Of a stretch of DNA of 64,000 nt, positions 63,162 to 63,407 are shown one piece after another. The notes under the pieces are model-generated. The model searched no databases, had not been told where the DNA came from, and saw nothing but the letters and a program-made list of their open reading frames with translations. A program made the translations under genes and the position numbers. Location of the stretch: NCBI RefSeq assembly GCF_003019035.1, contig NZ_CP027447.1; one strand, 5' to 3'. The first letter of the stretch is position 1; each line of letters starts with the position of its first letter. Source of the stretch: Escherichia coli (GTDB lineage Bacteria > Pseudomonadota > Gammaproteobacteria > Enterobacterales > Enterobacteriaceae).

Positions 63162-63407
63162 TGACATGTCACAAAGATATCACTCATTTTTTATGTGGCG
63201 ACAGGATGTGTAAAAACTTGCCGCTTTGATCACAATTAATGGCGATAAAAGTGCTTTTTAGTGTGATGCTTGTCACTAAAAAATGGGATGAATAATCTTT
63301 TTTGACATGTCAGATTTGGGGTTTGTGAATGCAATAAATCACACTGTTGCAGTGGGTTGGCGCGTTAATCATGGAATAAAGGATATTTTTTTATAACTAA
63401 CATGTCA
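63162..63407. promoter_or_regulatory. candidate operator motifs (TGACATGTCA palindromes) upstream of the accessory-locus transporter
   Basis: Perfect 10-bp palindrome TGACATGTCA at 63162..63171 and 63303..63312, and AACATGTCA at 63399..63407; copies 2 and 3 share acatgtcagatt. Confidence 0.4.

What the first reader, a model, noticed from the sequence alone, without database searches (positions are those of the whole stretch)
63162..63407. Perfect palindrome TGACATGTCA repeated upstream of the accessory-locus transporter
TGACATGTCA occurs exactly twice (63162..63171 and 63303..63312), with a third near-copy AACATGTCA at 63399..63407, all within the 400 bp between the transporter start and the 3' end of ppiC. 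Copies 2 and 3 share a 12-mer acatgtcagatt and lie about 96 bp apart. A second inverted repeat, tttagtg-N10-cactaaa, sits at 63257..63280. Repeated dyad symmetry at this position is what operator sites for the cluster's GntR regulator, or for a global regulator, would look like, although the motif is not the textbook FadR-type half-site.
Basis: seen in the sequence. Interest (0 to 1): 0.45.

Follow-up and report, generated by a model that had tools for sequence, protein, structure and literature searches.

The report
Repressor operators and CRP sites upstream of transporter
The repeated palindrome is real and is most likely the set of three binding sites for the neighbouring GntR-family repressor, arranged around two CRP sites, that switches on a rare sugar-acid utilisation island of E. 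coli; this is an ordinary kind of control region, but this regulator and its motif appear to be undescribed.

Summary
TGACATGTCA lies at 63162 and 63303 and TAACATGTCA at 63398, in the 404-bp spacer between an MFS transporter gene and ppiC. A third exact copy at 6298 is coding sequence and chance.

The window is E. coli. The five-gene island (GntR, PfkB kinase, RraA-like, 2-hydroxyacid dehydrogenase, MFS) occurs in 31 of 5,426 complete genomes.

The motif extends to about aaATCTGACATGTCAGATtt. It recurs at the promoters of the orthologous cluster in Klebsiella, a Citrobacter MAG, Pantoea, Atlantibacter, Rouxiella, Vibrio, Photobacterium, Basfia, an unidentified Logan contig and the alphaproteobacterium Pseudovibrio.

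A matrix built only from non-E. coli sites ranks the three window sites first (22-26.5 bits; next 13.1).

The same enzyme cluster with a diverged GntR/FCD regulator (Neorhizobium, Marinobacter; different recognition helix) lacks the motif and carries other palindromes. The motif therefore follows the regulator, not the enzymes.

O1 sits 2 nt downstream of a conserved extended -10 (TGnTAnnTT), over the inferred start site, which fits repression.

It is a new member of a known kind and of modest interest. Binding, start site and inducer are untested.

The parts
63157..63176 (.). O1, promoter-proximal operator. Core TGACATGTCA at 63162-63171; on the MFS coding strand it reads CTTTGTGACATGTCAGTTTA.
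   Evidence: Exact core. Scores 22.1 bits with a matrix built only from other genera. Invariant among E. coli variants, Klebsiella spallanzanii and a Citrobacter MAG. Lies 1-2 nt downstream of a conserved TGnTAnnTT in E. coli, Pantoea, Rouxiella and Atlantibacter.
63298..63317 (.). O2, upstream auxiliary operator. Core TGACATGTCA at 63303-63312; centre 141 bp from O1 and 38 bp upstream of the distal CRP site.
   Evidence: Exact core. Scores 24.3 bits. Invariant. Counterpart sites upstream of the CRP sites occur in Pantoea (L005:961) and in the MFS-dehydrogenase spacers of Pantoea, Atlantibacter and Rouxiella.
63393..63412 (.). O3, distal operator. Core TAACATGTCA at 63398-63407; 95 bp from O2 and about 5 nt from the ppiC terminator stem. 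Possibly a relic of the operator of a divergent gene lost from this island.
   Evidence: Highest score of the three, 26.5 bits. Invariant. The 20-mer ATAACTAACATGTCAGATTG is identical to the dehydrogenase-proximal operator of Atlantibacter, L007:5098. The relic idea is inference only.
63262..63277 (.). Distal CRP-type site TGTGATGCTTGTCACT (centre 63269.5, about -102 from the inferred start).
   Evidence: Matches TGTGA-N6-TCACA with 1 mismatch. Not significant on its own window-wide (4 found, 1.8 expected). CRP-like sites occupy the same place between the operators in Pantoea, Rouxiella, Atlantibacter, Vibrio, Photobacterium and Basfia.
63219..63234 (-). Proximal CRP-like half-good site TGTGATCAAAGCGGCA (centre 63226.5, about -60 from the inferred start).
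   Evidence: The TGTGAT-N5-(T/C)(A/G)GCA block is conserved with identical 55-nt spacing to the -10 in E. coli and Pantoea, and is present in Rouxiella. The right half-site is poor (2-3 of 5). Assignment is inferred.
63174..63182 (-). Inferred extended -10 element TGaTATCTT of the MFS operon promoter. The inferred transcription start is near 63167, inside O1.
   Evidence: TGATATCTT in E. coli, TGATAGATT in Pantoea, TGATAAATT in Rouxiella and TGCTATTTT in Atlantibacter form the only long conserved block besides the operator. There are no transcript data. The consensus scan instead proposed TTTACA-17-AAAAAT at 63214-63186.
61700..63037 (-). MFS transporter gene (anion:cation symporter / D-galactonate-transporter-like), first gene of the regulated operon. 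The true start is probably the ATG at 63037.
   Evidence: NCBIfam TIGR00893, 2.5e-73. RefSeq annotations differ: GTG at 63085 in SCU-301 and ATG at 63037 in SCU-124. A CAGGAA-N8-9-ATG motif is conserved in orthologues.
60625..61584 (-). D-isomer-specific 2-hydroxyacid dehydrogenase gene ('C-terminal binding protein').
   Evidence: Conserved cluster member.
59937..60593 (-). RraA-like (aldolase/decarboxylase-fold) enzyme gene.
   Evidence: Orthologues are 68-90% identical across gamma- and alpha-proteobacteria.
58933..59871 (-). PfkB-family sugar(-acid) kinase gene, KDG-kinase-like. It is followed by a terminator-like hairpin before the regulator gene.
   Evidence: The hairpin GTGCCGCGC-N6-GCGCGGCA is seen.
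58130..58768 (-). GntR/FadR-subfamily regulator gene (wHTH PF00392 plus FCD PF07729), the proposed binder of O1-O3.
   Evidence: Recognition helix S-S-T-K-A-P-V-R-D-A. No operator-like site lies in its own upstream spacer 58769-58932.
63413..63435 (.). Terminator hairpin downstream of ppiC (TGGCCCTT-N7-AAGGGCCA). It marks the right edge of the variable segment.
   Evidence: I13. It differs from the K-12 ilvC-ppiC spacer hairpins.

Best explanation
The three dyads are operators (O1, O2, O3; consensus about aaATCTGACATGTCAGATtt) for a dimer of the GntR/FadR-subfamily regulator encoded at 58130-58768.

Without inducer, the regulator binds O1. O1 lies 2 nt downstream of the -10 element and covers the inferred transcription start of the MFS-dehydrogenase-RraA-like-kinase operon, so binding blocks RNA polymerase.

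O2 (141 bp upstream) and O3 (236 bp upstream) are auxiliary sites. They raise local occupancy and may loop the DNA across two CRP sites at about -60 and -102.

An acid-sugar pathway intermediate presumably binds the FCD domain and releases the repressor. cAMP-CRP then activates transcription, so the operon is both substrate-induced and catabolite-controlled.

Shown here: the sites exist, are non-random, are conserved with the cluster across genera, and co-vary with the regulator clade.

Inferred: which protein binds, repression rather than activation, the start site, looping, CRP dependence and the inducer.
For: 1. The sites are real and clustered.

2. In close relatives about 10% of spacer columns vary, yet the three operators, the CRP2 core and the -10/O1 block are invariant.

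3. The motif is found at orthologous promoters in many genera.
- Pantoea, Atlantibacter and Rouxiella: upstream of the MFS gene, by the divergent MRJP gene, as two sites flanking a CRP site upstream of the dehydrogenase gene, and upstream of the cluster's aldolase gene.
- Vibrio (two species), Photobacterium and Basfia: one site next to each start codon of the divergent dehydrogenase and dctP genes.
- An unidentified Logan contig with a 45%-identical GntR, and Pseudovibrio, an alphaproteobacterium.

4. A matrix trained without any E. coli site ranks the three window sites first, at 26.5, 24.3 and 22.1 bits against 13.1 for the next. There is no hit of at least 18 bits in 209 kb of other E. coli DNA.

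5. A discriminating test. The same enzyme and transporter cluster in Neorhizobium and Marinobacter has a GntR/FCD only 34-38% identical, with recognition helix S(T/R)TPVREA in place of (T/S)K(A/S)P(V/I)RDA (one contig, L016, reads KIAPVRDA).
- These clusters lack the motif.
- They carry other palindromes instead: ACTGCTACCTTAG/CTAAGGTAGCAGT, and CTGTATACAG once with two near-copies.

6. The GntR/FCD gene is the only regulator gene common to all motif-bearing loci.

7. O1 abuts a conserved TGnTAnnTT extended -10.

8. Deviations from the palindrome are one-sided in 47 arm pairs and two-sided in 6. This fits protein half-site degeneracy, not a nucleic-acid hairpin.

9. Precedent: GntR/FadR regulators bind inverted repeats as dimers, and DgoR represses through inverted repeats that overlap its promoter (PMC11705089).
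Against: - There is no binding, footprint, transcript or reporter datum for any member of this regulator clade.
- The motif lacks the family's GT-N(x)-AC core (PMC4494728).
- The start site is inferred. The simple consensus scan preferred another hexamer pair, and CRP1 is a weak match.
- O1-O2 spacing (141 bp, about 13.4 helical turns) is not integral, so simple in-phase looping is not evident.
- E. coli has no site upstream of the regulator gene or in the MFS-dehydrogenase spacer, unlike some relatives.
- An orphan orthologue in Affinibrenneria (63% identity) has no motif within 8 kb.
- The matrix scans of the other loci are partly circular, because the sites were used for training.
- Only about 290 kb of E. 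coli DNA was scanned, not the whole genome.
Confidence: 0.8

Rival explanations
1. The local GntR/FCD protein binds the dyads but acts as an activator or dual regulator, for example from O2/O3, rather than as a simple repressor.
For: Two of the three E. coli sites lie far upstream (-141 and -236) of the inferred start. From background knowledge, FadR-subfamily proteins such as LldR and FadR can act both ways. A weak promoter-like pair has its -35 (CTGACA) inside O3.
Against: In every lineage one site sits at or just downstream of the -10, or immediately upstream of the ribosome-binding site. That is the classic repressor position. CRP sites already supply an activator. Sugar-acid FadR-type regulators such as DgoR are repressors (PMC11705089).
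Confidence: 0.12
2. The dyads are bound by a host-encoded global or unlinked regulator, not by the island's GntR protein.
For: No binding data exist. The motif departs from the GntR family consensus (PMC4494728).
Against: The motif travels with the cluster into hosts as different as Pasteurellaceae, Vibrionaceae, Enterobacterales and an alphaproteobacterium. It disappears when only the linked regulator is of a different clade. It is absent from 209 kb of other E. coli sequence. The island itself is in only 31 of 5,426 E. coli genomes.
Confidence: 0.05
3. The palindromes act as nucleic-acid structures (RNA hairpins in the leader, cruciforms or processing sites) rather than as protein operators.
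For: ATCTGA-CATG-TCAGAT could form a 6-bp stem. In several genera a copy lies 5-25 nt upstream of a start codon, that is, possibly in the mRNA leader.
Against: Departures from symmetry are one-sided in 47 of 53 deviating arm pairs, so pairing is not maintained. Copies also lie upstream of the CRP sites and promoters, where they would not be transcribed with the gene. The inferred start falls inside O1, which would truncate the hairpin. No Rfam family matches.
Confidence: 0.02
4. The repeats are by-products of island acquisition (attachment-site or terminal repeats, or a local duplication) or chance, with no regulatory function.
For: O3 sits about 5 nt from the terminator at the right edge of the variable segment. 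O2 and O3 share a 12-mer and have partly similar left flanks (D1 and D5).
Against: There is no copy at the left junction near ilvC: no ACATGT between 55239 and 63164, and the junction is aligned. The motif is conserved at internal promoters of the cluster in other genera at unrelated chromosomal sites. The chance probability is very low.
Confidence: 0.01

Closest known systems
DgoR-dgo operator/promoter of E. coli (GntR/FadR-subfamily repressor of D-galactonate catabolism)
   Same: A FadR-subfamily (wHTH plus FCD) regulator is encoded in a sugar-acid catabolic cluster that has an ACS-type MFS transporter, a kinase and an aldolase step. Inverted-repeat operators overlap the inducible promoter, and the sugar acid is the inducer (PMC11705089). 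From background knowledge, cAMP-CRP also acts on dgo.
   Different: DgoR binds two closely spaced repeats of the canonical type (TTGTAGTACAA, that is GT-N3-AC). Here there are three widely spaced sites (95 and 141 bp apart) with a non-canonical ACATGT centre. The regulator gene is last, not first, and seems separately transcribed. Protein identity to characterised relatives is low: the best NCBIfam matches are far below their cut-offs and the best PDB match has E = 2.5e-14.
FadR-fadBA operator (CATCTGGTACGACCAGATC)
   Same: A dyad bound by a dimer of the same subfamily. The outer arms ATCTG...CAGAT are identical to the consensus found here (PMC4259882 for the sequence and for contact residues R35, T44-T47, R49 and H65).
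   Different: The centre differs: GGTACGACC (17-bp odd dyad with GT/AC boxes) against ACATGT (16-bp even dyad). At the positions of FadR R45-T46-T47 the recognition helix reads K-A-P here (own alignment by eye, guided). The effector and pathway are different.
LldR at lldP, and the GalR/NagC type of promoter with two operators flanking a CRP site
   Same: One operator lies at or downstream of the start site and another about 100-170 bp upstream, with CRP site(s) between them. This layout is known to support repression by looping (background knowledge, not tested here).
   Different: Looping, oligomeric state and CRP dependence are untested for this system. Operator spacings vary between genera (97-174 bp, one of 333 bp). 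They show a common phase of about n + 0.4 turns rather than integral turns.
Comparative-genomics GntR regulon reconstructions (RegPrecise; Suvorova et al. 2015, PMC4494728)
   Same: The same kind of inference: a palindromic motif upstream of genes co-localised with a GntR regulator, with co-variation of the HTH and the motif.
   Different: Neither this motif nor the (T/S)KAP(V/I)RDA helix occurs in the held supplementary tables of that compendium. One table was truncated when stored, so absence is not proven.

Membership tests
GntR/FadR-subfamily regulator with its operator | The regulator has an N-terminal GntR-type winged HTH (PF00392) and a C-terminal all-helical FCD effector domain (PF07729). 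| tested here: met
   Precomputed Pfam domains of the protein and all orthologues. NCBIfam matches to FadR-subfamily members PhnR, NanR, CsiR, LldR and PdhR, all below their equivalog cut-offs. PDB relatives are all GntR/FCD proteins.
GntR/FadR-subfamily regulator with its operator | A dyad-symmetric operator lies in the promoter region of the co-localised target genes. | tested here: met
   Three dyads lie upstream of the first operon gene. One abuts the inferred -10.
GntR/FadR-subfamily regulator with its operator | The operator fits the family consensus NyGT-Nx-ACNy (FadR subfamily: TKGT/ACMA boxes, usually 3 nt apart; PMC4494728). | tested here: not met
   The core is TGACATGTCA, so AC precedes GT, and no GT-N0-4-AC lies in the 20-mer. 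PMC4494728 notes that some subfamily members (NanR, BioR) also deviate, so this does not exclude membership of the protein family. It makes the operator atypical.
GntR/FadR-subfamily regulator with its operator | The motif co-occurs and co-varies with the regulator across genomes. | tested here: met
   Present in all 12 loci that hold the cluster with an orthologue of at least 45% identity. Replaced by other palindromes in 2 loci with 34-38% identical regulators and a different recognition helix.
GntR/FadR-subfamily regulator with its operator | The purified regulator binds the operator directly, and a small-molecule effector releases it. | not testable with these tools
   Needs EMSA or footprinting and ligand screening. 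No literature was found.
cAMP-CRP activated promoter (class I type) | A 22-bp site with TGTGA-N6-TCACA. | tested here: met
   63262-63277, TGTGATGCTTGTCACT, matches 9 of 10 positions. The second site, TGTGATCAAAGCGGCA, matches 7 of 10.
cAMP-CRP activated promoter (class I type) | The site is centred near -61.5 or further upstream at helical-turn intervals from the transcription start. | tested here: inconclusive
   The centres are about -60 and -102 relative to a start site that is only inferred from a conserved -10. No transcript mapping is available.
cAMP-CRP activated promoter (class I type) | The site is conserved in orthologous promoters. | tested here: met
   CRP-like sites lie between the operators in Pantoea, Rouxiella, Atlantibacter, Vibrio, Photobacterium and Basfia. 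The Basfia site TGTGATTTTGATCACA matches 10 of 10.
Structured RNA element or repetitive extragenic palindrome | Base pairing is maintained by compensatory changes, or the sequence matches a curated RNA family. | tested here: not met
   6 two-sided against 47 one-sided deviations in 210 arm pairs. The only Rfam match has E = 0.9, far below its gathering score.
Island boundary repeats (att sites or terminal inverted repeats) | Matching copies lie at both junctions of the inserted segment. | tested here: not met
   No ACATGT between 55239 and 63164. The left junction next to ilvC carries no copy.

The most novel reading that the evidence does not exclude
This clade of GntR/FCD regulators has the recognition helix (T/S)K(A/S)P(V/I)RDA in place of the usual S-R-T-P-V-R-E-A. 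It may have evolved a non-canonical specificity: a dyad with an ACATGT centre, which inverts the family's GT...AC order.

It may govern a still-uncharacterised acid-sugar or lactone catabolic pathway: a periplasmic MRJP/SGL-like enzyme, a TRAP or MFS transporter, a 2-hydroxyacid dehydrogenase, an RraA-like enzyme, a KDG-kinase-like PfkB and a KDPG-aldolase-like Eda. This pathway has spread horizontally between gut, plant-associated and marine Proteobacteria.

The E. coli island would be a trimmed version that has lost the MRJP and aldolase genes and the internal promoter. O3 would be left as an orphan operator.
Probability: 0.45. Interest if true: 0.45.

Novelty: new member of a known kind. 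Interest (0 to 1): 0.3.

Why it matters
The result gives a concrete, testable regulatory model for a rare accessory island of E. coli, present in 31 of 5,426 complete genomes. The model has three operators, two CRP sites and one promoter.

It supplies a 20-bp motif that can be used to find the regulon of an uncharacterised GntR/FadR clade in Enterobacterales, Vibrionaceae, Pasteurellaceae and Pseudovibrio.

The operator departs from the family's GT-N-AC rule, and a changed recognition helix goes with it. The pair is therefore a useful data point for protein-DNA recognition codes in the largest GntR subfamily.

The regulated enzymes (MRJP-like, RraA-like, 2-hydroxyacid dehydrogenase, PfkB) have no assigned pathway. 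The repressor and operator pair could serve as a biosensor to identify the substrate.

None of this overturns current understanding. It is a well-behaved example of local repressor plus CRP control.

Tried and rejected
- **Site at 6298.** I took the third exact copy for a possible distant regulon member. I rejected it because it lies in the last codons of a fimbrial usher gene, lacks the flanks and scores at chance level.
- **Island junction repeats.** Rejected: there is no copy at the ilvC side.
- **RNA element.** Rfam gave nothing and there is no compensatory variation.
- **Genome scan with the GntR protein.** The peptide-pattern scan of species-representative genomes returned only 4 loci, one of them irrelevant (L006). 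The protein-database route was much more productive.
- **Affinibrenneria orthologue (L010).** It has a different context and no motif, so it is uninformative.
- **Literature searches.** I searched for the motif string, the cluster's gene combination, the RefSeq protein accessions and an ilvC-ppiC island, and found nothing relevant. The one RraA-like enzyme paper (PMC8563752) concerns a distant flavobacterial KDGR dehydratase/decarboxylase and does not assign this pathway.
- **PDB search with the TRAP binding protein of the Basfia cluster.** It found only generic DctP structures at E of about 1e-58 or weaker, with no ligand clue.
- **KdgR box.** From memory this is an odd-length dyad built on TGAAAC, which does not fit the even ACATGT-centred dyad. 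This was not tested with a matrix.
- **Simple promoter scan.** Its hexamer pair TTTACA-17-AAAAAT is not conserved in orthologues. I preferred the conserved TGnTAnnTT.
- **Helical phasing of operator pairs.** A Rayleigh test gave p of about 0.004 for a common phase near 4 bp. The loci are not independent, so I do not rely on it.

Full report
**1. What is in the sequence**

Region 63038-63441 is the spacer between a minus-strand MFS transporter gene and the 3' end of ppiC.
- TGACATGTCA is exact at 63162-63171 and 63303-63312.
- TAACATGTCA lies at 63398-63407.
- ACATGTCAGATT is shared by copies 2 and 3, 95 bp apart.
- TTTAGTG-N10-CACTAAA lies at 63257-63280.

It encodes the last residues (VTCH) of a fimbrial usher, lacks the extended flanks and scores at chance level.

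**2. Where the window comes from**

The window is E. coli; this stretch is 100% identical to strain SCU-301. Between ilvC and ppiC lies a five-gene island, all on the minus strand:
- a GntR/FCD regulator;
- a PfkB kinase;
- an RraA-like protein;
- a D-2-hydroxyacid dehydrogenase;
- an ACS-type MFS transporter.

Only 31 of 5,426 complete E. coli genomes carry it. K-12 has an 86-bp ilvC-ppiC spacer with other hairpins instead. The whole 404-bp spacer is therefore island DNA. There is no copy of the motif at the ilvC-side junction.

**3. Conservation in close relatives**

I aligned three E. coli variants, Klebsiella spallanzanii and a Citrobacter MAG. About 10% of spacer columns vary. The three dyads with their ATCTG flanks, the TGTGA/TCACA boxes of the distal CRP site and the block CACATAAAAAATGAGTGATATCTTTGTGACATGTCAGTTT are invariant.

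**4. Conservation in distant relatives**

Orthologues of the regulator (45-85% identity) lie in a conserved cluster: an MRJP/SGL-like protein, an MFS or TRAP DctPQM transporter, the 2-hydroxyacid dehydrogenase, the RraA-like protein, PfkB, GntR, and often a KDPG-type aldolase. The motif recurs at the cluster's promoters.
- In Pantoea, Atlantibacter and Rouxiella it lies upstream of the MFS gene and next to the divergent MRJP gene.
  - Two more sites flank a CRP-like site in the MFS-dehydrogenase spacer.
  - A further site lies upstream of the aldolase gene.
- In Vibrio algarum, V. cyclitrophicus, Photobacterium rosenbergii and Basfia one site lies next to each start codon of the divergent dehydrogenase and dctP genes, with CRP-like sites between.
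- It is also present in a more distant gammaproteobacterial-type contig and in Pseudovibrio, an alphaproteobacterium.

The 35 sites collected for the symmetry count agree with the 20-nt consensus AAATCTGACATGTCAGATTT. That matrix was built from 27 of them and holds about 21 bits.

**5. Statistics without circularity**

A matrix built only from non-E. coli loci ranks 63398 (26.5 bits), 63303 (24.3) and 63162 (22.1) first in the 64-kb window. The next hit scores 13.1.
- Random 403-nt sequences of the same dinucleotide make-up reach at least 18 bits with P of about 0.0005.
- Five of 200 random 64-kb windows reach it.
- Four 50-kb samples of the SCU-301 chromosome plus 9 kb of K-12 have no exact 10-mer and no hit of at least 18 bits. 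The top two hits, 16.3 and 15.1, lie inside the ybdM and acrF coding regions (with coordinates).

**6. Which protein binds: a discriminating comparison**

The RraA-like enzyme is highly conserved, which let me find the same cluster with other regulators.
- In Neorhizobium and Marinobacter the linked GntR/FCD protein is only 38% and 34% identical to the E. coli one. Its recognition helix reads S-T-T-P-V-R-E-A or S-R-T-P-V-R-E-A in place of (T/S)-K-(A/S)-P-(V/I)-R-D-A, the form shared by all motif-bearing loci but one (L016 reads K-I-A-P-V-R-D-A).
- Their promoter spacers lack the motif. They carry ACTGCTACCTTAG/CTAAGGTAGCAGT, and CTGTATACAG once with two near-copies, respectively.
- In Pseudovibrio the regulator is 60% identical with the same helix, and the motif is retained.

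The motif thus follows the regulator clade, not the enzymes or the host taxon. The GntR/FCD gene is the only regulator common to all motif-bearing loci.

**7. Promoter anatomy (inferred)**

Read on the MFS coding strand, E. coli, Pantoea, Rouxiella and Atlantibacter share TGnTAnnTT, followed after 1-2 nt by TGACATGTCAG. I read this as an extended -10 at 63182-63174. That places the start near 63167, inside O1, and gives a leader of about 130 nt to the ATG at 63037.

Upstream lie two CRP-type sites:
- TGTGATCAAAGCGGCA (63234-63219, centre about -60), with the same 55-nt spacing to the -10 in Pantoea;
- the strong site TGTGATGCTTGTCACT (63262-63277, centre about -102).

O2 lies 38 bp beyond the distal CRP site. 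O3 lies a further 95 bp upstream, about 5 nt from the ppiC terminator.

The layout of operator, CRP site(s), promoter and operator recurs at the dehydrogenase promoters of Pantoea, Atlantibacter and Rouxiella, and in the divergent regions of the Vibrionaceae and Basfia.

An operator over the start site argues for repression. The upstream operators suggest cooperative binding or looping, which is untested.

**8. Not a nucleic-acid structure**

Of 53 arm pairs that deviate from the consensus, 47 changed on one side only. Rfam has no match. Several copies lie upstream of promoters.

**9. Comparison with the known**

The protein is a FadR-subfamily member by domain content. It is not an equivalog of any named regulator.

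The operator does not fit the subfamily consensus TKGT-N3-ACMA (PMC4494728). It does share the outer ATCTG...CAGAT arms of the FadR fadBA operator (PMC4259882). DgoR is the closest functional analogue: a sugar-acid cluster, inverted repeats over the promoter and the sugar acid as inducer (PMC11705089).

Neither the motif nor the recognition helix appears in the held supplementary tables of the 2015 GntR motif compendium (one table truncated). Full-text searches found no paper on the motif, the cluster or its proteins.

**10. Verdict**

The spacer is a compound control region with three operators of the island's own GntR/FCD regulator and two CRP-type sites.

It is a new member of a well-known kind of system, with an atypical operator sequence, and of modest interest. 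What remains unknown is experimental: binding, the start site, the inducer and the substrate of the pathway.

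Noticed in passing
window 6298-6307: A third exact TGACATGTCA lies inside the last codons (GVTCH-stop) of an 840-aa fimbrial usher gene (6294-8816, minus), 11 nt upstream of the next fimbrial gene (5213-6283). It has no extended flanks and scores 11.2 bits, so it is a chance copy.
   Followed up: yes
window 58046-63441; L002 (K-12) 4447-4532: The ilvC-ppiC interval is a variable spot. K-12 has an 86-bp spacer with its own hairpins. This window has a 5.4-kb five-gene island found in only 31 of 5,426 complete E. 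coli genomes, and at the same place in Klebsiella spallanzanii and a Citrobacter MAG. The ppiC terminator hairpin also differs between the two forms.
   Followed up: partly
window 63724-63810 versus L002 4815-5677: ppiC and rep are only about 87 bp apart here. K-12 has the yifN pseudogene between them.
   Followed up: no
window 63037 / 63085 and 58768 / 58789: Start codons are uncertain. RefSeq starts the MFS gene at GTG 63085 in SCU-301 and at ATG 63037 in SCU-124; the orthologues' CAGGAA-N8-9-ATG favours 63037. The regulator ORF extends to 58789, but RefSeq and the orthologues (M-x-QDLLKDV) favour 58768.
   Followed up: partly
window 61585-61699 versus L005 2641-2766, L007 4840-5121, L008 5208-5331: In Pantoea, Atlantibacter and Rouxiella the MFS-dehydrogenase spacer holds an internal promoter module: operator, CRP site, operator. 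The E. coli spacer has neither motif nor CRP site. E. coli also lacks the MRJP-like and aldolase genes, so the island looks like a trimmed version driven from one promoter.
   Followed up: partly
window 63393-63412 and L007 5093-5112: The O3 20-mer ATAACTAACATGTCAGATTG is identical to the dehydrogenase-proximal operator of Atlantibacter. It has the same asymmetric TAACATGTCA form as all dehydrogenase-proximal sites. O3 abuts the ppiC terminator with no gene to serve, so it may be an orphaned operator.
   Followed up: partly
window 58890-58930: A GC-rich hairpin (GTGCCGCGC-CTGCCA-GCGCGGCA, then TAATTT) follows the kinase gene, and 140 bp separate it from the regulator gene. No operator lies there. 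The regulator is therefore probably transcribed on its own and is not autoregulated in E. coli. Vibrio and L016 have weak sites upstream of their regulator genes (about L009/L011:7934, L016:7938).
   Followed up: partly
L018 13003-13022: In Neorhizobium a near-perfect relative of the motif (AAATCTGAGATGTTAGATTT, 21.6 bits) lies 20 nt upstream of an unrelated GntR-family gene (PF00392 only) next to a peptide ABC transporter. A similar dyad may be used by another GntR-type protein.
   Followed up: no
L008 753-2084 and 3868-5207: In Rouxiella chamberiensis both MFS genes of the cluster are split into fragments (apparent pseudogenes), yet their operators are intact. A second MFS locus upstream carries two further exact copies (552, 714).
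   Followed up: no
operator pairs in window, L005, L007-L009, L012, L013, L016, L017: Centre-to-centre distances of neighbouring operators (95-174 bp, one of 333) share a phase of about 3-6 bp modulo 10.5 (Rayleigh p of about 0.004). The loci are not independent, so this is only a hint of a preferred geometry.
   Followed up: partly
L007 1-1087 and 10333-16636; L011 10191-13178: In Atlantibacter and Vibrio cyclitrophicus the cluster lies next to integrase, transposase and other mobile-element genes. This fits horizontal spread of the whole module, regulator and operators included.
   Followed up: no
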